From positions 150,001 through 182,000 of the forward strand of contig NZ_CP135009.1 in NCBI RefSeq assembly GCF_039383305.1: 32,000 nt of DNA, in the 5' to 3' direction. A program made the translations under genes and the position numbers. Each line of letters opens with the position of its first letter. The first letter of the stretch is position 1. The stretch comes from Candidatus Saccharimonadota bacterium (GTDB lineage: Bacteria > Pseudomonadota > Gammaproteobacteria > Enterobacterales > Enterobacteriaceae). Under the pieces are notes generated by a model. The model had not been told where the DNA came from. It did not search any database and worked only from the letters and a program-made list of their open reading frames with translations. Of the stretch, positions 12,072 to 29,500 are shown in pieces.

Positions 12072-13226
12072 TTATTTTTTTTTTCTTAAAAATGCTGGAA
12101 TATTTAAAAAAGATTTTTCATGTTGATTATTGTATATTGATGTATTTGATTGTTTAAAATTAGAAGCATTTTTTGTGATTTCCAATTCTGAATTTTCTTC
12201 TGAATTTTTATAAATATTCTTTGAATTGGTATGCATATGTGTATTTTGTAATCCTGTAATTTCAGATCCATTTTCCATTCCAATGCCAGTTGCAACAACA
12301 GTTACTCGTAAAGTATTTTCCATTTTAGGATCTAAAGAGGTTCCTATTACTACTGTTGAATTGTCAGATGAAAAAGAACGAATAGTATTTCCAACTATTT
12401 CAAATTCATCTAATCGTAAATCAAATCCTGCGGTAATATTAACTAAAATTCCACGTGCACCAGATAAATCTATATCTTCTAATAAAGGACTTGAAATTGC
12501 TATTTCAGAAGCTTCTTCAGCTCTTTTTTCTCCAGAAGATGTTCCAGTTCCCATCATAGAATATCCCATTTCAGACATTACAGTACGAACATCTGCAAAA
12601 TCAACATTCATTAATCCTGGTCTGGTAATTAATTCAGCTATACTTTGTACTGCTCCTTTTAAGATGTTATTTGCTGCTCCAAAAGCATCAAGTAAAGAAA
12701 TTCCTTGATCTAAAACTTTTAATAATTTGTCATTTGGAATTATAATTAAAGAATCTACATATTTAGAAAGTTCTTTTAATCCATGTTCTGCAAATAACAT
12801 TCTTTTTTTTCCTTCAAAACTAAATGGTTTAGTGACTACAGCTACAGTTAATATTCCTAGTTCTCGAGCTACTTCCGCTATTACGGGTGCAGCTCCTGTA
12901 CCTGTTCCTCCTCCCATTCCGGCTGCAATAAAAATCATATCTGCTCCTTCTAAAGATTTTTTTAATATTTCTTTATCTTCTTCTGCAGATGTACGTCCTA
13001 CTTCGGGATTAGCTCCGGCACCTAAACCTTTAGTAATACTATTTCCTATTTGAATAGTTTGACCTACTTCAATTGTACGTAATGCTTGAGCATCTGTATT
13101 AACAGCAAAAAATTCTACACCTTCAATTTTTTCTCGTACCATATGTTCTACTGCGTTACTACCTCCTCCTCCTATCCCAATAACTTTAATAATAGGTTCA
13201 TGATTAAATTCTACAGGTTCAAACAT
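12072..13226 (-). CDS. ftsZ: cell division GTPase FtsZ
   Basis: 384 aa. N terminus MFEPVEF...IKVIGIGGGGSNAVEHM, tubulin signature GMGGGTGTGAAP, and C-terminal conserved peptide NIPAFLRKKK. AAGGA RBS upstream. Confidence 0.98.
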   Translation of the reverse strand: MFEPVEFNHEPIIKVIGIGGGGSNAVEHMVREKIEGVEFFAVNTDAQALRTIEVGQTIQIGNSITKGLGAGANPEVGRTSAEEDKEILKKSLEGADMIFIAAGMGGGTGTGAAPVIAEVARELGILTVAVVTKPFSFEGKKRMLFAEHGLKELSKYVDSLIIIPNDKLLKVLDQGISLLDAFGAANNILKGAVQSIAELITRPGLMNVDFADVRTVMSEMGYSMMGTGTSSGEKRAEEASEIAISSPLLEDIDLSGARGILVNITAGFDLRLDEFEIVGNTIRSFSSDNSTVVIGTSLDPKMENTLRVTVVATGIGMENGSEITGLQNTHMHTNSKNIYKNSEENSELEITKNASNFKQSNTSIYNNQHEKSFLNIPAFLRKKK

Positions 13227-13274
13227 TTTAAATTCCTTAATATAAGAAGAAAATAAATTTTTAAAAAAATAATT

Positions 13275-14531
13275 TTAAAATTCTTTTTTAAACCAATTAT
13301 TAATTTTTTGTAACCATTTTTTAAAAAATCCATATTTTTGAGAAATAATAGGAGAAAATTTTTGATCATTTTTACTTTGTATAAGTAATCCTATTGTAGT
13401 AGAATATTCAGGAGACATAATTTCTTTTGGTATTTCTAAAATATTTTGTGAATTTCGAATTTGTACTTTATTGTTAAAAATTCTTTCAGAAAAAATATTT
13501 AAATTTGGAATTTTAGCAGCTCCACCAGTAAAAATAATACCTGAATTTAATTTATTGTTTAAAAAATGGTGATTTTGTAAAGATGTTACTTTTAAGATTT
13601 CACAATTTATTAAGTTAAGTAATTCTAAATATCGTGGTTCTATAACTTCTATTAATGAATTTTGATGAAAGCTTTGTTTTTTTTGCTCGTTATATCTTGG
13701 TATTTCAAAAGTTGTTGGTGTATTTAATAAAGAAGATAATAAACTTCCATATTTTATTTTAATTTTTTCTGCTTCAGAAAATGTTAAAGAAAATGCATAT
13801 GCAATATCGTTAGTAACTAAATTTCCAGCATAAGGAATTACAGCGCTATGTCTTAAAATTCCTGAAGTGTAAATATTTATATCAATAATTTCACCTCCAA
13901 TATCTACCATGCATACACCAGAATTTTTTTCTTCAGAAGTTAAAATTGATTGGCTAGAAGCTAGTCCAGAAAAAATTATTTTTTTTACTCGTATTTTACA
14001 TTTTTCTATTGCTTTAATAATATTTTTCTTAATATGACAATCGGTTGTAATTAAATGTACATTAGCTTTCATGCGCATTCCAGATAATCCAATAGGATTA
14101 TGAATACCTTTTTGTTGATCAATTTCATAATCTTGGGGTATAACATGTAAAATATGATGATTATTTTGTATTTTAACAGATTTAGCTGTTTTAATAACAT
14201 TTTTAATATCTTCTTTTGTTACTTCACCGGATAAGATTGGAACAATTCCAATTTCATTTTGACATTTTATTTCTTTATTTGATAAAGCTAAATAAATAGA
14301 TTTAATTTTACAATTTGCCATTTTTTCGGCTTTATATAAAGATTTTTTTATACACTCTACTAATTTTTCTAGGTTATTAATAATTCCTTGATATATTCCT
14401 TGAGTGGGAGAAGTTCCGAAACCAATAATAGTGATACGATTTTTTTCTAAGATTTCTCCAATTAAAATAGAAATTTTTGTTGCGCCAATTTCTAATCCTG
14501 CAATCAACTTTTTTTTTATGGTACTTATCAT
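13275..14531 (-). CDS. ftsA: cell division protein FtsA
   Basis: 418 aa with actin/Hsp70-fold layout (GLEIGATKI, VDIGGE, FTGGAAKIP). C-terminal amphipathic helix KKWLQKINNWFKKEF resembles the FtsA membrane-targeting sequence. Lies immediately upstream of ftsZ. Confidence 0.94.
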   Translation of the reverse strand: MISTIKKKLIAGLEIGATKISILIGEILEKNRITIIGFGTSPTQGIYQGIINNLEKLVECIKKSLYKAEKMANCKIKSIYLALSNKEIKCQNEIGIVPILSGEVTKEDIKNVIKTAKSVKIQNNHHILHVIPQDYEIDQQKGIHNPIGLSGMRMKANVHLITTDCHIKKNIIKAIEKCKIRVKKIIFSGLASSQSILTSEEKNSGVCMVDIGGEIIDINIYTSGILRHSAVIPYAGNLVTNDIAYAFSLTFSEAEKIKIKYGSLLSSLLNTPTTFEIPRYNEQKKQSFHQNSLIEVIEPRYLELLNLINCEILKVTSLQNHHFLNNKLNSGIIFTGGAAKIPNLNIFSERIFNNKVQIRNSQNILEIPKEIMSPEYSTTIGLLIQSKNDQKFSPIISQKYGFFKKWLQKINNWFKKEF

Positions 14532-14945
14532 GTTCTGTAGCCTTAGCTAGAGTATTATAATGTTATATTCTATATATTGTATATTAATATTTTATTTGAT
14601 AGTTTAGGTATTAGATGTTTTGTATTTTTAAAAAAAATAATTATTACATAATTTATATTTTTTATAAAAATTTTATTATAATATTTTTTTTAAAAAAAAT
14701 TTGGCATTTTTTAAATTTCTAAATTTTGATTAATTTTTGAATTATTTAAAATTTTATTTTATTATTTTGATATATTTTTTAAAATTTTATAAAAAAAAAT
14801 TAATATAAAGATTTTATCATATCTAAAAAAATATAAAAAAATATTTTTTTTAGAATTTTTTAATGATATTTAATTTAACTAATAAATATTTTTTAAACAT
14901 TTTTTTTAAGATTTTTTTTTAAAAAATTTAATAATTTATAAAAAA

Positions 14946-15869
14946 TTATAAAATTTCTGCAGTTCTTAAAATTGCGCTTCTAGCGCGTTTATTATTAATT
15001 ATTTCTAATTTTGTAGGTTTAATACGTTGAATATTTTTTATTTTTTTTTTATTTTTTTTTTTTAATTGTAATTCATTAATTGGTAAACCCATTGGAATTT
15101 CAATAGCAGAACTATTTTTTTTAAAAAATTTTTTGACAATTCGGTCTTCTATAGAATGAAAGCTAATAATCGATAATATAGCTCCTGGTTTTAAAATTTT
15201 TAAAGATATTTTTAAGATCTTTTTTAGTTCTTTTATTTCTTGATTTAGAAATATTCTTAATGCTAAGAAGGTTCGAGTAGCAGGATGTTTTAACATATTT
15301 TTGAAGGGTATAGTTTTCTTAATAATTTCAGCTAATTCTAATGTATTTGAAATGGGTTTTTTTTTATGATGTTTAAAGATTTCAAAAGCAATTTTTTTTG
15401 AATATTTTTCATTTCCAAATTTATATAATATTTTTGTAAGTTTTTTTTCTGAAATTTTATTTAATAATTGTAATAAAGATATACCAATTTGAGGATTCAT
15501 TCTCATATCTAAAGGTCCTTTTTTTTGAAAAGAAAATCCTCTTTTGGGATTATCAAGTTGAAAAGATGAAATTCCAAGATCCAAAATTAGTCCATTAATT
15601 TTTTTTTTTAGATTATAGTTTAATATATGTTTTTGAATATTAGAATATTTATCATTAATTAAAATTAATCGAGGATCTAAAATTTTTTTTCCTATTTGAT
15701 ATGCTTGAGGGTCGGTGTCTATACCTAATATCATACCTTTTTTTCCTAAATTTTTTAAAATTTCTTTTGTATGACCTCCATTTCCAAAGGTCCCATCTAT
15801 ATAAATTCCATTTTTTTGAACTTTTAGAGATTGGATAGTTTCTGTTAGTAAAACTGGTATATGTTGCAT
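14946..15869 (-). CDS. rsmH: 16S rRNA m4C1402 methyltransferase RsmH (MraW)
   Basis: 307 aa. Starts HIPVLL, with DGTFGNGGHT SAM-binding motif, LDLGISSFQLD and FHSIEDRIVK blocks. Confidence 0.94.
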   Translation of the reverse strand: MQHIPVLLTETIQSLKVQKNGIYIDGTFGNGGHTKEILKNLGKKGMILGIDTDPQAYQIGKKILDPRLILINDKYSNIQKHILNYNLKKKINGLILDLGISSFQLDNPKRGFSFQKKGPLDMRMNPQIGISLLQLLNKISEKKLTKILYKFGNEKYSKKIAFEIFKHHKKKPISNTLELAEIIKKTIPFKNMLKHPATRTFLALRIFLNQEIKELKKILKISLKILKPGAILSIISFHSIEDRIVKKFFKKNSSAIEIPMGLPINELQLKKKNKKKIKNIQRIKPTKLEIINNKRARSAILRTAEIL

Positions 15870-22181: not shown

Positions 22182-22739
22182 ATGTTAAATAAAATAAAAA
22201 ATTTTTTACATATACGTATGAATAATTGTGTAAATTTATTTCAGAAAGATTTAAAAAAAATAAGAACTAATACAATTTCTCCAGATTTAATAGAAAACAT
22301 TACAATTAATTATTTTGGTACTGTAACTCCTTTAAAAAAATTATCTAATATTGTTGTTCAAGATTCTCAAACTTTAAAAATTACAGTTTTTGATAATTCA
22401 ATAATTCCTATGATTAAAAAATCGATTTTTAGTTCAAATTTAGGAATGAATCCTATTTCTGAAGGTTCTGATATTCGTGTGTATATGCCCCCTTTAACTG
22501 AAGATCGAAGATTAGAGTTAATTAGAATTATAAAAAATGATGCTGAAAATACACGAATTTTTATTCGTAATTTAAGAAGAGAAGGAAAAGAAAAAATAAA
22601 AAAATTATTAAAAAATAAAGAAGTTACAAAAGATTGTTTTTATATTTTTCAAATAGAGATTCAAAAAAAAACAAATTTTTTTATGAAAAAAATTGATTCT
22701 ATTGTGCTCTTAAAAACTAAAGAATTAATGAAAATTTAG
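22182..22739 (+). CDS. frr: ribosome recycling factor
   Basis: 185 aa, a canonical length. Contains MPPLTEDRR and IRNLRREGKEK blocks. Confidence 0.93.
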   Translation: MLNKIKNFLHIRMNNCVNLFQKDLKKIRTNTISPDLIENITINYFGTVTPLKKLSNIVVQDSQTLKITVFDNSIIPMIKKSIFSSNLGMNPISEGSDIRVYMPPLTEDRRLELIRIIKNDAENTRIFIRNLRREGKEKIKKLLKNKEVTKDCFYIFQIEIQKKTNFFMKKIDSIVLLKTKELMKI

Positions 22740-23326
22740 TTTTTTAACTTTAGTTAAAAAATTAATGTATTTTTAAGATTTTTTTTTAAAAAAGTTATAT
22801 ATTTTAAAAAATGTTAAATGATATTTATTTAAAAACATTTTAAGATTTAAAAAATTTTTTTAAAAAAAATATATTTTTTTAAAGTGATTTATATATTTTT
22901 TAAGAAAATAATTTATAAAAAAAATTTTTTATAATATAAATATTCAAAAAACAATATTTTTTAAAATTTTTAAAATCATATAACTAAATTTTATAGTTTT
23001 TAAATTTTTAAAGAATGATGATTTTTGAAGTATTTAAAGAATATTAAGAATATTACATAAATTATTTTTAATGAAATTTTTAGTAATAGAATGTTTATAA
23101 TTTGAGTGTTATTTGTATAATACATCTTGAGTAAAATTTATGACTAGAATAAAATATTATTATTTAAATTAAATAAAAAAATTTAATTTTTTAAATTTTT
23201 TAATATTATATTTTTATATAAAATATAATATTTTTTATGTATGCGATTGATTTTAAAAAAAAATATTTTATTTATAATTGTATTAAATTTCCATTCATTA
23301 GTATAATAAGGATAGATAGTATAAAT

Positions 23327-25843
23327 ATGTTATTTAAAAAATTTAGTTTGGTATGCTTATTATTTTTTTCTTTAGCTGAAGCTTCTCAATTTCAGTCTAA
23401 TATAGATTATAATGTTCCAAATTTTTCAAAAAATTTTCAAATATCTATATCAAAAAAGATGAATGATTATCCAATTTCGTCAAATATTTTAAAAAGAAAA
23501 TTTTTTCCAAATTCAAAAAATATTTTAAATGAGAAAAAAAAAATATTATCAAAAAATTTTCAATCTAAAATAATTTCTAAAAATTTGGATACAAAAATTC
23601 AATTAATTAAAAAAATTACTTTTTTAGGAAATAATTTTTTTTCTAATCAATCTCTTTTAGATATGATGAAAAATTTTGATATTTTAGAAAGTAAAATTTT
23701 TTCTTATTCACAAGTACAAAAATTTATTAAACATATAAAAGATATTTATTATCAAAATGGGTTTTTAAACTGTTGTGTTGAAATTGTAGGTGTCCCAGTT
23801 TCAAGTGATCGAGTACAAGTTAATGTAATGATTAAAGAAGGAAAAATTTCTCGTATTTCTAGTTTAGAGATTTCAGGAAATACTCATTTTTCTACTACGC
23901 AAATTAAAGAAATTTTGTTAAAAAATAAACCATTTTGGTTATTTAATTTTTTTTCTAAATCTATTTACGCGCCTAATAAATTTAAAAAACATTTAGATAA
24001 TTTATTAAAGTTATACCATATGCATGGTTATTTAGATTGCCAAATTTTTCCTGTATATTCAGTGAGCCCTAAAAATTTATTTTTGACTGATATTCAAGTT
24101 AGAATTCAAGAAGGTGCTTTATATGAATATGGTAAAATGGAAATTTTAGGTATAAAAGATCCTTTTTTTTTAAAAAATTTAAAAAAAATTTTAAAAAAAT
24201 TTCAACAAAAGTATAATTCATCATATAATTTAAAAAATATTTGTGTTCTCAAAAAAAAACTTAAAAATCTTTTTTTAAAATTTGGATATGCTAAAGTTTT
24301 TTTAAAAACTAAAATTTTAAAAGACATAAATTATAAAAAAATAAATTTTTATTTTTATTTAAAAAAAGATAAACAATATTTTCTTAATAAAATTTTTTTT
24401 CATGGTGCTACATACTCACAAGAAATTTTTTTACGTAAAATTTTACAAAAATATATAAATCGTTACTATGATTTTAGTCTTTTGAAAAAATGTTGCTTGA
24501 ATTTTTTAAAGACTGGATTTTTTGAAAGTGTTTCTATTAAACATGTTCCTATTTTTAAAAATTCTAATAAAATTAATGTATTTTTTATATTAAAAGAAGA
24601 GAATAGAAGAAATTGTGATTTTTCTTCTGAATATAATTTTCAAGAAGGATTAAAATTACATTTATTAGGATGGAAAAAAAATATTTTTGGTACTGGTTGG
24701 AAATTAAAAGGAAATATTTGGAAAGGTCCAGATTCTATAAAAGGTGATATGAATATTTCTGCTCCTTCAATATTTTTTAAAAATTATTTATTACAATATC
24801 ATATATTTTATCATACTTTAAAAAATCAATATTTTTTATCTTCTAATATTTTACAAAATGATGTAGGTAGTGAAATACAACTTAGAACTAAAAAACGTAA
24901 TCATAAACAAATGTTATTATCTTTAGGATATATTAATACTAAAAATTTTAATTTAAATTTAAATATTCCTACTGTAAAATTACGAGGTTCTTTTTATACT
25001 GATGTTATACAAAAATATTTTAATACACATAATTATGTAAAAAATTTTTTTGTACGTACTGCATTTGATTATAATACATTATTTCCTACAGTGTGTCCTG
25101 AAACTGGTAATCTTTTTAGATTTTTTGGGCAATTTAATTTACCGGCTTCTACAGAGTTATATCATAATTTTGCAATTAATCTTGAAAAATATATTCCTAT
25201 ATTGGATAAAAATAATATTATATTACATGGTTGTGCAAATTTTAAATTTGGAATTAATTTTTTAAAAGATTTATTTAAAGTTGAACCTGAAATTATACCA
25301 GAAGAAGAAAAAGAAGAAATTGTTCAAAATATTGAACCAGAAATTACTACAACAGTAATTCCTGAAGTTACAGAACCAGAAAATGCTGAATTTACTATGA
25401 TAGTAAAAGATTTAACGACTCCATCAATAGATACTACAACTGTTGTTCCTGAAGTCTTAAATTCTGATATTATATCTAGTTCAGAATCTGAAGATAAATC
25501 TTTAGAAGTTCAAAAAAATAAAATTCAACCGGTATTATTTTTGGATTTTTTAACTCAAATTAAAGCAGAAATTTTATTTCCGCATTTAAGATTTCCTATT
25601 CCGTTATTTCGAAATTTTCAATTTTCTATATTTACAGAATGTACTTCAAATTGGAATCTTGAAACTACATATGATATGCAAATTGTAAAAGATGGAACTT
25701 ATCATCAATTGAATCCACATAGTATGACTGTTATGGCTGGTTTTTTTACACGTTGGTTTTCACCTTTAGGTCCTATAAAATTTACTTTTTCTAAATCTGT
25801 GTTTCATTATGTCAATGAAAATTCTATAAATGAAGATATATAG
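23327..25843 (+). CDS. bamA: outer membrane protein assembly factor BamA (atypical)
   Basis: I place the start at the ATG at 23327, which gives a classical signal peptide MLFKKFSLVCLLFFSLAEA. By eye, POTRA2-5 align to E. coli BamA (ITFLGN..., ISGNTHFSTTQ...PFW..., FFHGATYSQE...). C-terminal barrel strands are recognisable (FFTRWFSPLGPIKFTFS). See findings for the divergent N-terminal and L6 segments. Confidence 0.88.
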   Translation: MLFKKFSLVCLLFFSLAEASQFQSNIDYNVPNFSKNFQISISKKMNDYPISSNILKRKFFPNSKNILNEKKKILSKNFQSKIISKNLDTKIQLIKKITFLGNNFFSNQSLLDMMKNFDILESKIFSYSQVQKFIKHIKDIYYQNGFLNCCVEIVGVPVSSDRVQVNVMIKEGKISRISSLEISGNTHFSTTQIKEILLKNKPFWLFNFFSKSIYAPNKFKKHLDNLLKLYHMHGYLDCQIFPVYSVSPKNLFLTDIQVRIQEGALYEYGKMEILGIKDPFFLKNLKKILKKFQQKYNSSYNLKNICVLKKKLKNLFLKFGYAKVFLKTKILKDINYKKINFYFYLKKDKQYFLNKIFFHGATYSQEIFLRKILQKYINRYYDFSLLKKCCLNFLKTGFFESVSIKHVPIFKNSNKINVFFILKEENRRNCDFSSEYNFQEGLKLHLLGWKKNIFGTGWKLKGNIWKGPDSIKGDMNISAPSIFFKNYLLQYHIFYHTLKNQYFLSSNILQNDVGSEIQLRTKKRNHKQMLLSLGYINTKNFNLNLNIPTVKLRGSFYTDVIQKYFNTHNYVKNFFVRTAFDYNTLFPTVCPETGNLFRFFGQFNLPASTELYHNFAINLEKYIPILDKNNIILHGCANFKFGINFLKDLFKVEPEIIPEEEKEEIVQNIEPEITTTVIPEVTEPENAEFTMIVKDLTTPSIDTTTVVPEVLNSDIISSSESEDKSLEVQKNKIQPVLFLDFLTQIKAEILFPHLRFPIPLFRNFQFSIFTECTSNWNLETTYDMQIVKDGTYHQLNPHSMTVMAGFFTRWFSPLGPIKFTFSKSVFHYVNENSINEDI
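25283..25455 (+). repeat. short intragenic direct repeats inside the acidic bamA segment
   Basis: GAACC[T/A]GAAA(T/A) occurs at 25283, 25334 and 25373, each encoding EPE. A 23-mer at 25346-25368 (ACTACAACAGTAATTCCTGAAGT) matches 25433-25455 (ACTACAACTGTTGTTCCTGAAGT) at 20 of 23 positions; both encode TTTV(I/V)PEV. Confidence 0.8.
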
Positions 25844-25895
25844 TTTTGTTATAATGTTTTCAAATAATATATAAATTTATAGAAATAAATAAAAA

Positions 25896-26002
25896 ATTCA
25901 CGAATATTTTTCATATGAATTTATTTTATAAAATTTTTAAGAAAAATAATTCATATACTTTTTAAAAGTTGGATAAAAAAATCATATGAATAATTCGTGA
26001 TT
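25896..26002 (+). repeat. interrupted inverted repeat in the bamA-fabZ spacer (terminator-like)
   Basis: Left arm ATTCACGAA-tatt-TTCATATGA (25896-25918) pairs with right arm TCATATGAA-ta-ATTCGTGA (25982-26000) in perfect blocks of 9 and 8 bp. The arms are 63 nt apart. The right arm is followed directly by TTTTATTTTTTTTT. Confidence 0.6.
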
Positions 26003-26028
26003 TTATTTTTTTTAAAAAGTGATAAAAA

Positions 26029-26463
26029 ATGTATAATTATTTTATTAAAGATATTTTAAAATATTTGCCACATCGGCATCCATTTTTGTTAGTGGATCAA
26101 ATATTAGAATATTCTTCTAATTTTTCTTTAGTAGCTGTTAGTAATATGTCTAAAAATGATTTTTTAGGGCATTTTCCAAAAAAAATAATATATCCTGGTT
26201 TTTTACTTTTGGAGTTAGTAGCTCAGTCCTGTGGATTATTACTATCTATAAGTAATCCTAAAATTTCGAAAGATATTTTTTATTGTTTAGGTAGTGTAAT
26301 TTCAGCAAAATTTAAGCAAATGGTAATACCCGAAGCTCAATTAATTATCAAAATTTTTTTAAAAAATTTTAATTTTACAGCATATAAATTTTATGGATCT
26401 ATTTTTGTAAAGAAAAAATTAGTGTTTACAACTACGTTAATTTTAGTTCAAAAGAAATTTTAA
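26029..26463 (+). CDS. fabZ: 3-hydroxyacyl-ACP dehydratase FabZ
   Basis: 144 aa. Contains LPHRHPFLLVDQILE, GHFP and PGFLLLELVAQ (catalytic His and Glu contexts). Confidence 0.92.
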   Translation: MYNYFIKDILKYLPHRHPFLLVDQILEYSSNFSLVAVSNMSKNDFLGHFPKKIIYPGFLLLELVAQSCGLLLSISNPKISKDIFYCLGSVISAKFKQMVIPEAQLIIKIFLKNFNFTAYKFYGSIFVKKKLVFTTTLILVQKKF

Positions 26464-26591
26464 TTTTTAAAAAAAATATTTTTTGTAAATATATAAATTA
26501 AAAAAATTTTTAATTTCAGAATGTTTAAGTATTTTAATATATAATTTAGGGGAATTTATTTTTTAAATATTAAAGTATTATTAGGAAAATT

Positions 26592-29500
26592 ATGAAAAAA
26601 GTAAATTTCGTACATTTACGTACACATAGTGATTATTCTATGATAGATGGATTATCAAAACCTGAAGTATTAGTACAACGTGCTGTTTCTTTAAAAATGG
26701 TTGCTTTAGGATTAACAGATATTAATAATTTATATGGTGTAATAAAATTTTATCATTTTGCGCGTCTATCAGGTATTAAACCTATTATTGGAGTAGATTT
26801 TACATTTCTTTCTAATATTATAAAAAATTATTTTTTTAGAATGACTTTATTAGCCGCTAATCAAGTTGGTTATCAAAATATTATTATCTTGTTATCAAAA
26901 TCTTATCAAAAAGGATATCAAGAAAATTTGGGTCCTGTTATTACTTTTAAAAATTTAAAAAAATATCGGGAAGGAATTATTATATTATCAGGGGGTATTG
27001 AAGGAGATATAGCTAAATGTATTTTATATAATGATTTAAAATTAATAAAAAAAAATTTTCAATATTTTAAAAAGTATTTTGATAATTCTTATTTTTTAGA
27101 AATTTCTAGAATTAAGAATTTTCGTGAAGAAGAATATTTAGAAAAAATTAAATATATTTCAAAAAAATTTAATATTCCTTTAGTGGTAACGAATCCAGTA
27201 TCTTTTTTAAAAAAAAAAGATTATAAAGTACATAAAATACGTATTGCGATTTATCAACGTAAAATTATTTCTGATTCTAAATTTTCTTATACATATACTA
27301 AAGAACAATTTTTAAAAAGTGAAAAAGAGATATGTGATTTATTTAAAGATTTTCCAGATGCTTTACGAAATAGTGTTGAAATTTCAAAACGTTGTAATGT
27401 GATTATACTTACCGGAAAATATTTTTTACCTGTTTTTGACACTGGTAGTATGAATATATTACAATTTTTTTTACAAAAAATTTCTGAAGGATTAGAAAAA
27501 AGATTACAAGAAATATTTCCTGTTGTATCTGTGCGCCAAAAATTGCGTATCCCATATGATATAAGATTATCATATGAAGTTTCTGTTATTAAAAAAATGG
27601 GATTTATTAGTTATTTTTTAATTGTTATGGAATTTATTCTTTGGGCAAAAAATAATGATATTCCAGTTGGCCCAGGTAGGGGATCTGGATCTGGTTCTTT
27701 AGTTGCTTATGTTTTACAAATTACTGAATTAGATCCTTTAAAATTTGATTTATTATTTGAAAGATTTTTAAATCCTGATCGAGTTTCTTTACCTGATTTT
27801 GATATTGATTTTTGTATGGAAAAAAGAGATTTAGTTATTGAACATGTTTCTGAAAAATATGGTAGAAACTCAGTAGCTCAAATTATTACTTTTGGAACCA
27901 TGGCGGCTAAAGCTGTAATACGTGATGTGGGTCGTGTATTAGGTTATCCTTACGGTTTTATTAATAAGATTTCTAAATTAGTTCCTTTAGATCCAGGTAT
28001 GACTTTAAGAAAAGCGTTCAGAAAACAGAAAGAATTAGAAAGATTATATAAAGAAGATTTAAATGTTAAAACATTAATTGATTTAGCTAAAAAATTAGAA
28101 GGCGTAGTACGGAATGTCGGTAAACATGCAGGAGGAGTAGTTATTTCTCCTACAAAAATTTCTGATTTTGCTCCATTATATTGTGATTCGAATGGAAAAA
28201 ATCAAGTAACGCAATTTGATAAAAATGATATTGAATATGTAGGATTAGTAAAATTTGATTTTTTAGGATTAAAAACTTTAACGATTATTAATTCTTGTAT
28301 TAAGATGGTTAATGAAAAAAATATTCGTTTAAAAAAAAAAACAATTAATATTAATAAAATTAGTTTATCTGATATAAAAAGTTTTAATTTATTAAAAAAA
28401 GCAGATACAATTGCTGTTTTTCAATTAGAATCTAAAGGTATGCAGGATTTAATTAGAAGATTAAAACCTGATTCTTTTGAAGATTTAATTGCTTTGGTAG
28501 CATTGTTTCGGCCGGGTCCGTTACAATCAGGAATGGTAGATAATTTTATAAATCGTAAACAAGGTTGTGAAAAAATAGCATATCCGGATAAAAAATGGCA
28601 ACATATTTTATTAAAACCTATTTTAGAATCTACATATGGCATTATTTTATATCAAGAACAAGTAATGAAAATAGCTCAAATTTTATCTAATTATACTCCG
28701 GGTCAAGCTGATATTTTACGTAGAGCAATGGGGAAAAAAGATCCTAAAGAAATGTCTGCTCAAAGAAATTCCTTTGAAATAGGAGCGAAAAAAAATGGAA
28801 TTTGTACTATTTTAGCTAATAAAATTTTTAATTTATTAGAAAAATTTGCTGCATATGGTTTTAATAAATCTCATTCTGCTACTTATGCTTTTTTATCATA
28901 TCAAACATTATGGTTAAAATCTAATTATCCTGCAGAGTTTTTCGCGTCCGCTTTAAATATGGATTTATCAAATACAATTAAAATTGTAATATTAATAAAG
29001 GATATTCAAAAAAGGAATTTAAAAATTATTCCTCCAGATATTAATATGAGTTGTTGGAATTTTTTTGTAGATAAAAACAATAATATTGTTTATGGTTTAG
29101 GAGCTATTAAAGGTTTAGGGAAATCTTCTATAGACATTATTCAAAAAGAAAGAAAAAATGGAAAAAAACCTTTTAAAAATTTTTTAGATTTATGTATTCG
29201 TACTGTTTCGAAAAATTTTACTCGTCGAGTTTTTGAAAGATTAATAATGTCTGGTGCTTGCGATAGTTTTAAAATTTGTAGATTTGAGTTATTTTATAAA
29301 ATAGAATATTTTATGAAAGTAGCTAAACAATATATTTTATTTCGTACTTCTAAGCAAAGAAATTTATTTGGTTCTCAACATTCTTTAAAAAATATTTTTT
29401 GTTTGCAGGATTCTCAGATTTTTTCAAAAAATAAGATAAAAAATTTGATAAATATGGAATATTATTATTTATGGGAAAAAGAAACTTTAGGATTTTATTT

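What the first reader, a model, noticed from the sequence alone, without database searches (positions are those of the whole stretch)
25271..25531. BamA barrel loop L6 replaced by an acidic, repetitive Glu/Pro/Thr/Val-rich segment with no VRGF motif
Aligning by eye to E. coli BamA (from memory), the flanks match well. LHGCANFKFG corresponds to GRTRWGYG, and VLFLDFLTQIKAEILFP corresponds to VGGNAMAVASLEFITP. Between these flanks E. coli has roughly 70 aa of loop L6 containing the near-universal (V/I)RG(F/Y) motif. Here there are roughly 90 aa: INFLKDLFKVEPEIIPEEEKEEIVQNIEPEITTTVIPEVTEPENAEFTMIVKDLTTPSIDTTTVVPEVLNSDIISSSESEDKSLEVQKNKIQP. I find no RGF/RGY in this segment. The only RG in the barrel, KLRGSFY, aligns to an earlier loop. 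The segment is strongly acidic in a protein and proteome that are otherwise Lys/Asn/Ile-rich. It is built from short DNA repeats (EPE units and TTTV(I/V)PEV units). It is also visibly richer in G/C than its surroundings, which argues against simple AT-driven decay. It could be a surface- or lumen-exposed adaptation of the only outer-membrane biogenesis gene left at this locus; a host-interface role is pure speculation.
Basis: partly seen in the sequence, partly recalled or inferred. Interest (0 to 1): 0.7.

Follow-up and report, generated by a model that had tools for sequence, protein, structure and literature searches.

The report
Decayed loop 6 in Buchnera BamA
The acidic stretch is loop 6 of the outer-membrane assembly protein BamA in the aphid symbiont Buchnera (Nippolachnus piri); it has lost its near-universal RGF anchor and appears to be drifting freely inside a gene that is itself eroding but still kept open by selection.

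Summary
Window 25271-25531 encodes aa 649-735 of BamA (CDS 23327-25843, +) of Buchnera aphidicola from Nippolachnus piri. This is loop L6, between strands b11 and b12.

- **Motif:** there is no (V/I)RG(F/Y). The RGF columns read P-S-I.
- **Charge and length:** L6 is the most acidic of 226 BamA homologues (net -15; next -9; median +1). It is also among the longest (86 aa against a median of 49.5).

The adaptive reading is not supported.

- **Homology:** the loop is still homologous to L6, because TTTVVPEV aligns with E. coli SNTIGPKAV.
- **Sister genus:** in Tuberolachnus salignus the loop also lacks RGF but is basic (+4).
- **Rate:** L6 holds 27 of the 32 indel columns between the two proteins and has dN/dS of about 1.0. 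POTRA2-5 and the rest of the barrel have 0.56-0.59, and neighbouring genes 0.12-0.41.
- **GC rise:** it lies only at codon positions 1 and 2. GC3 is lower than in the rest of the gene.
- **Structure:** AlphaFold gives no confident structure for most of the loop.

Other core features are also gone: POTRA1, the GGN of b12, the D/G of FxDxG, and strand b16 (15 strands predicted).

Verdict: this is an unanchored, small-duplication-expanded, near-neutrally evolving loop in a degenerate BamA that remains under weak selection. It is a new variant of a known kind and of moderate interest.

The parts
23327..25843 (+). bamA coding sequence (838 aa plus stop). The mechanical ORF starts 30 codons upstream at 23237, but homologues and one NCBI annotation start at MLFKKF.
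   Evidence: Pfam POTRA 69 bits and Omp85 57.6 bits. TIGR03303 BamA scores 242 bits, below the 297 cut-off. PDB BamA matches at E 2.5e-33. Identical to WP_343128848 and, with the upstream start, to P0020 of Buchnera (Nippolachnus piri). Foldseek matches BamA at E 1.8e-47.
23384..23602 (+). aa 20-92: the region where POTRA1 should be, no longer recognisable.
   Evidence: No POTRA hit, whereas the same E. coli stretch hits PF07244. pLDDT is below 50 for aa 20-89. dN/dS is 1.2 (0.68-2.2).
23603..24598 (+). aa 93-424: four POTRA-like beta-alpha-alpha-beta-beta units (POTRA2-5).
   Evidence: AlphaFold secondary structure, with pLDDT mostly above 85. Pfam POTRA. dN/dS is 0.56 (0.41-0.76).
24599..25261 (+). 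aa 425-645: barrel strands b1-b11.
   Evidence: AlphaFold strands, mostly at high pLDDT. Aligned to E. coli BamA up to RWGYG.
25262..25534 (+). aa 646-736: loop L6. It is expanded, acidic and lacks RGF. The finding (25271-25531) lies inside it.
25315..25392 (+). Probable diverged 39-nt tandem duplication (EEIVQNIEPEITT / TVIPEVTEPENAE). T. salignus has one copy (SEILEKIS-EKKN).
   Evidence: 34-nt pair at 71% identity with spacing 39. A 14-aa gap in T. salignus at this point. Inference: not significant on its own.
25345..25368 (+). Upstream copy of the 24-nt repeat (ITTTVIPEV).
   Evidence: 88% identical to 25432-25455. Reached by 8 of 500 codon shuffles.
25415..25429 (+). T-T-P-S-I: the position of the ancestral T-V-R-G-F (R to P699, G to S700, F to I701).
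   Evidence: Near-invariant R and G columns map to residues 699 and 700. Alignments.
25432..25455 (+). Downstream copy of the 24-nt repeat. It encodes TTTVVPEV, the remnant of the conserved SNTIGPKAV after the motif.
   Evidence: The invariant Pro column is P708. Alignments.
25535..25807 (+). aa 737-827: strands b12-b15. The docking residues for RGF are kept (E717 as E748, F738 as F769, G771 as G805) apart from D740, which is now E771. The GGN of b12 and the G of FxDxG are lost.
   Evidence: AlphaFold strands 737-751, 764-778, 800-812 and 815-827.
25808..25843 (+). aa 828-838 plus stop: a short tail where b16 should be.
   Evidence: 24 aa after the GP of b15, against a median of 30. This is the second shortest of 226, and T. 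salignus is the shortest at 19. pLDDT is below 50 and no strand is predicted in either model. No b16-like remnant is seen downstream in any frame.

Best explanation
The segment is extracellular loop L6 (b11-b12) of the BamA orthologue of Buchnera aphidicola from Nippolachnus piri, an aphid symbiont with a 418-kb genome. Lachninae Buchnera are reported to have lost nearly all peptidoglycan-pathway genes.

In ordinary BamA, L6 is tucked into the barrel. Its RGF motif anchors it to E717, F738, D740 and G771. In the common ancestor of the Nippolachnus and Tuberolachnus symbionts that anchor was lost. From then on the loop only had to stay in frame, so that b12-b15 are still made.

The loop then drifted at about the neutral rate and took up nearly all the gene's indels. 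In N. piri it grew through small in-frame duplications of P/E/T/V-coding seeds. That left an 86-93-aa, very acidic tether that is probably disordered.

The rest of BamA (POTRA2-5 and strands b1-b15) is still under weak purifying selection. The protein therefore probably keeps a low-demand role in a much simplified outer membrane. The acidic loop itself most likely has no specific function.

Shown: identity of the loop, loss of the motif, rates, composition, ORF maintenance.
Inferred: disorder, the duplication history, the residual function.
For: - **Orthology:** domains, fold and conserved frr-bamA-fabZ-dnaE synteny.
- **Motif loss is stepwise in Lachninae Buchnera:** Cinara tujafilina has VRGF. 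C. splendens, C. piceae and C. cedri have [KHR]SGF. T. salignus has HNNI and N. piri has TPSI. Nearly all of about 230 other homologues keep RG[FY].
- **Neutral-like evolution of L6:** 29% identity, 27 of 32 gap columns and omega 0.99 (0.49-1.9). POTRA2-5 has 0.56 and the barrel 0.59, both with bootstrap below 1. Neighbouring genes have 0.12-0.41.
- **Acidity is not shared by the sister genus:** +4 against -15.
- **GC excess is compositional:** GC3 is 0.046. No similar DNA exists elsewhere in the window.
- **Local duplications:**
- **Low structural confidence:** AlphaFold pLDDT is below 50 over aa 670-734 in the full model and 677-714 in the barrel-only model.
- **Parallel erosion elsewhere in the protein:** POTRA1, GGN, FxDxG and b16.
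- **The gene is kept open by selection:** 0 of 3000 neutral simulations keep the ORF open even at 0.1 substitutions per site.
- **Context from the literature:** another Buchnera (Baizongia pistaciae) lost BamA, OmpA and OmpF and is reported to have a double-membrane system. C. cedri Buchnera keeps only OmpA and YaeT and lacks SurA, DegP and LspA (PMC3246468). Lachninae Buchnera lack peptidoglycan genes (PMC9116674), which fits the rsmH-ftsA-ftsZ remnant in the window. RGF mutations in E. coli are deleterious but only conditionally lethal (PMC4890855; PMC12712708).
Against: - **Composition is far from AT-mutational equilibrium:** GC1 is 0.48 against 0.28 in the rest of the gene and 8-12% GC in spacers. 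Glu is 19.5%. Pure drift would be expected to give a Lys/Asn/Ile-rich loop, as in T. salignus. The duplication-of-seed explanation is only weakly supported statistically.
- **The rate estimate is crude:** omega of about 1 on 70 codons has a wide interval and could hide a mix of constraint and positive selection. NG86 is a rough method in a 21% GC genome.
- **No within-species information:** the two N. piri strains are identical.
- **Missing data:** there are no expression or protein data, and the OMP client list of this genome could not be checked.
Confidence: 0.7

Rival explanations
1. Adaptive acidic surface loop. After the anchor was lost, L6 was recruited as an exposed polyanionic, PEVK-like tether facing the symbiosomal space. 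It might act as a cation or cationic host-peptide binding surface, or as a charge filter. Its acidity would be maintained by selection in the Nippolachnus lineage.
For: It is the most acidic L6 of 226 homologues and the most acidic window among the proteins of the 32 kb. GC1 and GC2 are well above the gene and genome background despite strong AT pressure. E. coli L6 is also net acidic at -6.
Against: The acidity is not conserved in the sister genus (+4). Omega is about 1 and the loop holds most of the gene's indels. Most of the loop has low AlphaFold confidence. No repeat or domain family matches. The two available strains are identical, so they carry no information.
Confidence: 0.13
2. Repurposed barrel. 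With L6 unplugged and b16 gone, the BamA barrel would no longer work mainly as an insertase. It would instead serve as a permanently open diffusion or protein-conducting pore in an outer membrane that has lost OmpF-type porins. The acidic L6 would make the vestibule cation-selective.
For: Fifteen strands are predicted with no b16, and the RGF lock, GGN and POTRA1 are all lost, yet POTRA2-5 and the barrel have omega below 1. OmpF is absent in the Lachninae Buchnera studied (C. cedri). BamA/Omp85 proteins form channels in vitro (PMC4890855).
Against: There is no direct evidence. POTRA2-5 are as constrained as the barrel, which fits retained client handling. The OMP inventory of this genome is unknown. 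AlphaFold strand counts in a divergent protein are not proof. Relaxed selection alone explains every loss.
Confidence: 0.08
3. The whole gene is a non-functional remnant (a pseudogene in all but name), and the loop is simply its most decayed part.
For: It is the fastest-evolving of eight neighbouring genes (45% identity against 52-87%; omega 0.65). It falls below the TIGR03303 cut-off. Several hallmark motifs are lost. BamA has been lost outright in another Buchnera lineage.
Against: An 838-codon ORF is open in a 21% GC genome in both genera, and all indels are in frame. In neutral simulations the ORF stays open in 0 of 3000 runs. Omega is significantly below 1 for POTRA2-5 and the barrel. Four POTRA units and 15 strands are modelled with high confidence.
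Confidence: 0.06
4. Foreign insertion or an assembly or sequencing artefact within bamA.
For: Only the locally raised GC and the unusual composition.
Against: GC3 is 0.046, typical of the host or lower. The protein is identical in two independently assembled N. piri genomes. The segment is partly alignable to the T. salignus loop. No similar DNA occurs elsewhere in the window, there is no ORF of 25 aa or more on the opposite strand, and there is no Rfam hit.
Confidence: 0.02

Closest known systems
E. coli BamA (b0177; PDB 5D0O, 5AYW and others)
   Same: Signal peptide, POTRA repeats followed by an Omp85 barrel, the position of L6 between b11 and b12, conserved docking residues E717, F738 and G771, and the chromosomal position next to fabZ.
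   Different: No RGF (P-S-I in those columns). L6 is 86-93 aa against 67, and net -15 against -6. GGN of b12 is lost. FxDxG reads FTECT. POTRA1 is unrecognisable. b16 and the aromatic C-terminus are missing. Identity is only about 17-18%.
BamA of Buchnera aphidicola (Tuberolachnus salignus), CUR53135 / P0002
   Same: Nearest relative (45% identity). Same synteny. It also lacks RGF, GGN, POTRA1 and b16, and shares part of the L6 insertion.
   Different: Its L6 is 71 aa, net +4 and Lys/Asn/Ile-rich. It lacks the 14-aa EPEITTTVIPEVTE piece and the acidity.
BamA/YaeT of Cinara Buchnera (C. tujafilina, C. splendens, C. piceae, C. cedri BCc_146)
   Same: Same Lachninae Buchnera lineage. They show earlier steps of the same erosion: RGF changes to [KHR]SGF, the G of FxDxG is lost and the terminal GKTW is lost. 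The BCc protein is annotated at only 571 aa.
   Different: They keep a 61-aa L6 with a PFYEN...SGF...GP core, GGN and a b16-like strand. C. tujafilina keeps VRGF.
BamA of Candidatus Westeberhardia cardiocondylae (P0154, P0226)
   Same: An independent tiny-genome symbiont with a degraded L6 motif (IRCL / IRII) and no GGN.
   Different: It keeps the Arg, b16 and the GKTW/GKIW terminus, and has no acidic expansion.
Loop L6 of FhaC/TpsB and organellar Omp85s (Sam50, Toc75)
   Same: A lumen-occluding L6 is the hallmark of the superfamily. Deleting or mutating it impairs function (PMC4890855).
   Different: [quoted passage not shown] Here it is gone.

Membership tests
BamA / Omp85 (PF07244 + PF01103; TIGR03303) | N-terminal POTRA repeats | tested here: met
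   PF07244 scores 69.1 bits against a cut-off of 21.3. AlphaFold shows four POTRA-like units at aa 93-424. The fifth unit (POTRA1) is not detectable.
BamA / Omp85 (PF07244 + PF01103; TIGR03303) | C-terminal Omp85 beta-barrel domain | tested here: met
   PF01103 scores 57.6 bits against a cut-off of 24, although the best stretch covers only profile positions 1-184 of 325. Foldseek's best hits are BamA chains, at E 1.8e-47 for the full model and 2.1e-15 for the barrel-only model.
BamA / Omp85 (PF07244 + PF01103; TIGR03303) | Score above the curated equivalog cut-off for BamA | tested here: not met
   TIGR03303 scores 242.3 bits against a cut-off of 297.15. PRK11067 scores 145 against 1181.
BamA / Omp85 (PF07244 + PF01103; TIGR03303) | Loop L6 (V/I)RG(F/Y) motif | tested here: not met
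   No RG[FY] in the last 260 aa. The motif columns read P-S-I.
BamA / Omp85 (PF07244 + PF01103; TIGR03303) | Barrel-wall partners of the motif (E717, F738, D740 of FxDxG, G771) | tested here: inconclusive
   E, F and G are conserved. D740 is now E, and the G of FxDxG is now T (FTECT). The list of partner residues comes from PMC12712708.
BamA / Omp85 (PF07244 + PF01103; TIGR03303) | 16-stranded barrel closed by b1-b16, with an aromatic C-terminal residue | tested here: not met
   Both AlphaFold models have 15 strands, and the tail has pLDDT below 50. The tail after the GP of b15 is 24 aa against a median of 30. The last residue is Ile, whereas 188 of 226 homologues end in F, W or Y. This rests on prediction and alignment only.
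BamA / Omp85 (PF07244 + PF01103; TIGR03303) | Orthologous chromosomal position (frr ... bamA ... fabZ ... dnaE) | tested here: met
   The window order is tsf-frr-bamA-fabZ-dnaE-proS. The T. salignus locus has the same order. In E. coli bamA lies between rseP and skp.
BamA / Omp85 (PF07244 + PF01103; TIGR03303) | OMP insertase activity with BamD and client OMPs | not testable with these tools
   The rest of the genome (CP135009 / CP135006) could not be scanned, because both genome-contig scans returned nothing. There are no functional data.

The most novel reading that the evidence does not exclude
A BamA orthologue that selection keeps open although it has lost the RGF lock, GGN, POTRA1 and strand b16. 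On this reading it works as a 15-stranded, permanently unplugged pore with an acidic, cation-selective L6 vestibule, in a porin-poor symbiont outer membrane without a cell wall. That would be an insertase turning into a channel, loosely parallel to the Omp85-to-Toc75 transition in plastids.
Probability: 0.08. Interest if true: 0.75.

Novelty: new variant of a known kind. Interest (0 to 1): 0.4.

Why it matters
The L6 RGF motif is described as conserved in all Omp85/TpsB proteins and as important for BamA folding and function. Here is a natural BamA, still under purifying selection in two aphid-symbiont genera, that lacks it. It also lacks b16, GGN and POTRA1. Graded intermediates exist in Cinara Buchnera, and there is an independent parallel in Westeberhardia.

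This gives a ready-made series for asking what a minimal BamA needs when clients are few, peptidoglycan genes are gone, and LPS genes are missing at this locus. It also shows the order in which an essential machine comes apart before it is lost, as it already has been in Baizongia pistaciae Buchnera.

The acidic segment itself is most probably of no functional consequence.

Tried and rejected
- **Closer relatives in GTDB genomes.** With the 2-sequence alignment it chose N-terminal patterns and confirmed nothing. My own degenerate pattern for WFSP[LF]GPIKF found 0 matches.
- **The look-up of encoding contigs for the 838-aa protein.** Not on record. The T. salignus locus was retrieved instead.
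- **Word-indexed protein searches with the query or the Lachninae alignment.** These returned few Buchnera sequences. The full HMMER scan and a search seeded with a more typical symbiont BamA gave the comparison panel.
- **Tandem-repeat origin.** TRF found only a 2-copy 12-mer, an AGA run and a 2-copy 9-mer. Rejected as an array.
- **Foreign origin or a donor elsewhere in the window.** blastn-short and tblastn found nothing beyond chance AT-rich words.
- **Antisense gene or RNA element.** There is no ORF of 25 aa or more on the opposite strand and no Rfam match at E up to 1 in 22500-26700.
- **A b16 strand hidden by a frameshift.** None is visible in the three downstream frames.
- **The FtsZ C-terminal linker as a similar acidic segment.** It reaches only -10 and is unrelated in sequence.
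- **Literature.** The titles and abstracts listed by the Buchnera+BamA search (27 hits, 15 listed) and the VRGF search showed no report of RGF loss in Buchnera BamA. I read only parts of a few of these papers.
Full report
**What the region is**

The window has about 21% GC. Its ORF at 23237-25843 (+) carries Pfam POTRA (69 bits) and Omp85 (57.6 bits) domains. It matches NCBIfam BamA TIGR03303 at 242 bits, which is below the curated cut-off of 297. It also matches solved BamA chains at E 2.5e-33.

The 838-aa form starting at 23327 (MLFKKFSLVCLLFFSLAEA...) is identical to WP_343128848. The 868-aa form is identical to a protein of Buchnera aphidicola (Nippolachnus piri). The two deposited genomes are 417,660 and 417,640 bp, CP135009 and CP135006.

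The gene order is tsf-frr-bamA-fabZ-dnaE-proS. The nearest relative, Buchnera of Tuberolachnus salignus, has the same order. The finding's coordinates, 25271-25531, are in frame and encode aa 649-735.

**Checking the observation**

*Flanks.* phmmer aligns the query to E. coli and Salmonella BamA up to ...HGCANFKFG / ...GRTRWGYG. It resumes only at aa 797. MAFFT places VLFLDFLTQIKAEILFP on VGGNAMAVASLEFITP. The segment is therefore L6, the b11-b12 loop.

*Motif.*
- No RG[FY] exists in the last 260 residues.
- In a 74-sequence alignment the near-invariant R, G and P columns of L6 fall on P699, S700 and P708. T-V-R-G-F has become T-T-P-S-I (25415-25429).
- The conserved SNTIGPKAV that follows has become TTTVVPEV.
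- KLRGSFY lies in the b7-b8 loop.

*Size and charge.*
- L6 is 86-93 aa, depending on where the boundaries are set, against 67 in E. coli.
- Net charge is -15 and Glu is 19.5%. The rest of the protein is +55 with 3.3% Glu.
- It is the most acidic 87-aa window of any ORF in the 32 kb.
- It is the most acidic L6 among 226 BamA homologues. The next is -9, E. coli is -6 and the median is +1.

*GC content.*
- GC is 0.276 against 0.202 for the rest of the gene.
- All the excess is at codon positions 1 and 2 (0.48/0.30 against 0.28/0.24).
- GC3 is lower than in the rest of the gene (0.046 against 0.080).
- The GC expected from the loop's amino acids, using the gene's own codon usage, is 0.293.
- The GC rise is therefore a consequence of the amino-acid composition. 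It is not independent evidence about origin or selection.

*Repeats.*
- TRF finds nothing substantial.
- One 24-nt pair at 88% identity (ITTTVIPEV and DTTTVVPEV codons) is reached by only 8 of 500 codon shuffles.
- Overall repeat content is ordinary (104/500).

**How unusual the motif loss is**

Two panels were examined: 86 homologues from word-indexed searches, and the best 150 representatives from a full HMMER scan of 1.84 billion proteins. Nearly all enterobacterial-type symbiont BamAs keep RG[FY]. These include Arsenophonus, Sodalis, Serratia symbiotica, Baumannia, Blochmannia and Buchnera of Aphidinae.

Exceptions form a graded series inside Lachninae Buchnera:

| Host | L6 motif |
|---|---|
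| Cinara tujafilina | VRGF |
| C. splendens, C. piceae, C. cedri | [K/H/R]SGF |
| T. salignus | HNNI |
| N. piri | TPSI |

Two further points:
- Westeberhardia shows an independent partial loss (IRCL / IRII).
- Some non-enterobacterial representatives carry PG[FY], HGY or AGY. The Arg is therefore not strictly universal.
- Complete loss of the motif was seen only in the two Tuberolachnini symbionts.

**The loop is not the only thing that has gone**

- **Docking residues.** The residues that receive the motif are listed in PMC12712708. E717, F738 and G771 are retained. D740 is now Glu, and the Gly of FxDxG is Thr (FTECT).
- **GGN.** The nearly universal GGN at the start of b12 is lost in both Tuberolachnini proteins.
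- **b16.** After the conserved GP of b15 the protein has 24 residues, and T. salignus has 19. The median is 30, and these are the two shortest of 226. The chain ends in Ile rather than the usual aromatic residue. No b16-like remnant is visible in any downstream frame.
- **Strand count.** Both AlphaFold models show 15 confident strands and an unstructured tail. Mean pLDDT is 75 for the full-length model. The barrel-only model has pTM 0.74.
- **POTRA1.** Residues 20-92 give no POTRA hit, unlike the same stretch of E. coli. They have pLDDT below 50.

**Evolutionary rates against T. salignus**

- BamA is 45% identical. Seven neighbouring proteins are 52-87% identical.
- Nei-Gojobori dN/dS is 0.65 for bamA and 0.12-0.41 for the neighbours.

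| Region of BamA | Omega (bootstrap 2.5-97.5%) |
|---|---|
| POTRA2-5 | 0.56 (0.41-0.76) |
| Barrel without L6 | 0.59 (0.45-0.79) |
| L6 | 0.99 (0.49-1.9) |
| N-terminal region (aa 20-92) | 1.21 (0.68-2.2) |

- L6 is 29% identical and holds 27 of the 32 gap columns. The C-terminal tail holds the other five.
- All indels are in frame.
- In neutral simulations the 838-codon ORF never stayed open, in 0 of 3000 runs, even at 0.1 substitutions per site.
- The gene is therefore maintained by selection, but only weakly. L6 behaves as unconstrained apart from having to keep the frame.
- NG86 is crude at this base composition, so the relative ranking is more trustworthy than the absolute values.

**History of the loop (inferred)**

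Part of the insertion upstream of the former motif is shared. N. piri PEEEKEEIVQNIEP corresponds to T. salignus SEKNNKSEILEKIS. That part therefore predates the split.

N. piri has an extra 14 aa (EPEITTTVIPEVTE). It coincides with a diverged 39-nt tandem pair (25315-25348 and 25354-25387, 71% identity). It also coincides with the 24-nt copy of the TTTVVPEV remnant.

Amplification of P/E/T/V-coding seeds gives a neutral route to the odd composition. The statistics are weak, and the composition remains the one feature that drift does not fully explain.

**Context**

- Lachninae Buchnera have lost nearly all peptidoglycan genes (PMC9116674).
- The window agrees. rsmH, ftsA and ftsZ are adjacent, with none of the intervening fts/mur genes of the E. 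coli dcw cluster (the E. coli gene order is from my own knowledge).
- Buchnera of Baizongia pistaciae has lost BamA, OmpA and OmpF and is reported to have a double-membrane system. C. cedri Buchnera keeps OmpA and YaeT but lacks SurA, DegP and LspA (PMC3246468).
- RGF mutations in E. coli impair OMP and BamA assembly, but the phenotype is only conditionally lethal.
- A slow-growing symbiont with very few clients could plausibly tolerate such defects.

**Conclusion**

The best-supported reading has four parts:
- L6 of a degenerating BamA orthologue lost its RGF anchor in the Tuberolachnini ancestor.
- It has since evolved at about the neutral rate.
- It expanded by small in-frame duplications.
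- It happens to be strongly acidic in N. piri.

Rivals and their status:
- **Adaptive acidic surface loop:** not excluded, mainly because the composition is far from AT equilibrium. It lacks positive support.
- **Barrel-turned-pore:** the most novel reading that the data leave open.
- **Whole-gene pseudogene:** contradicted by ORF maintenance and by omega below 1 for POTRA2-5 and the barrel.
- **Foreign insertion or artefact:** contradicted by GC3, by the two identical assemblies and by partial alignability to the sister loop.

No antisense ORF or known RNA family overlaps the segment.

The genome is published and the gene is annotated generically. The titles and abstracts listed by my searches, and the passages I read, show no description of this BamA variant. 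I rate it a new variant of a known kind, of moderate interest.

Noticed in passing
window 25808-25843 (BamA aa 828-838); L002 8401-8457: The C-terminal strand b16 of BamA appears to be missing in both N. piri and T. salignus Buchnera. Their tails after the GP of b15 are the shortest of 226 homologues. AlphaFold predicts 15 strands, and no remnant is seen downstream.
   Followed up: partly
window 23384-23602 (BamA aa 20-92): POTRA1 is unrecognisable. There is no Pfam hit, pLDDT is below 50 and dN/dS is about 1.2. Four POTRA-like units remain. C. cedri Buchnera is reported to lack SurA.
   Followed up: partly
window 12072-15869 (- strand): The dcw cluster is reduced to rsmH, ftsA and ftsZ, with only a 414-nt gap where ftsL-ftsI-mur-ddl-ftsQ lie in E. 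coli. This agrees with the published loss of peptidoglycan genes in Lachninae Buchnera.
   Followed up: partly
window 22740-23326 and 25844-26028: There are non-coding spacers at 9% and 12% GC. E. coli has dxr-uppS-cdsA-rseP in place of the first and skp-lpxD in place of the second. lpxA-lpxB-rnhB are also absent between fabZ and dnaE. T. salignus has equivalent spacers.
   Followed up: partly
window 26029-26463: FabZ is also fast-evolving. It is 52% identical to T. salignus FabZ and scores 101 bits against the TIGR01750 cut-off of 155.
   Followed up: no
P0003, P0004, P0089, P0095 (Cinara Buchnera BamA): The L6 motif reads [H/K/R]SGF instead of RGF, with a basic residue shifted one position. 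The C. cedri protein is annotated at only 571 aa. These look like intermediate stages of the same erosion.
   Followed up: partly
P0154, P0226 (Candidatus Westeberhardia cardiocondylae BamA): An independent tiny-genome symbiont with a degraded L6 motif (IRCL / IRII) and no GGN, but with b16 intact.
   Followed up: no
P0136, P0185, P0210, P0212, P0225, P0231 and others (unnamed representatives): A set of non-enterobacterial BamA homologues carries PG[FY], HGY or AGY in place of RG[FY]. The motif's Arg is therefore not strictly universal. Their taxonomy was not determined.
   Followed up: no
window 23237-23326: The mechanical ORF and one NCBI annotation (868 aa) start 30 codons upstream of the signal peptide. 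Homologues support the start at 23327.
   Followed up: yes
window 12283-12708 (+): A 141-aa Pro-rich ORF lies antisense to ftsZ. It is almost certainly spurious.
   Followed up: no
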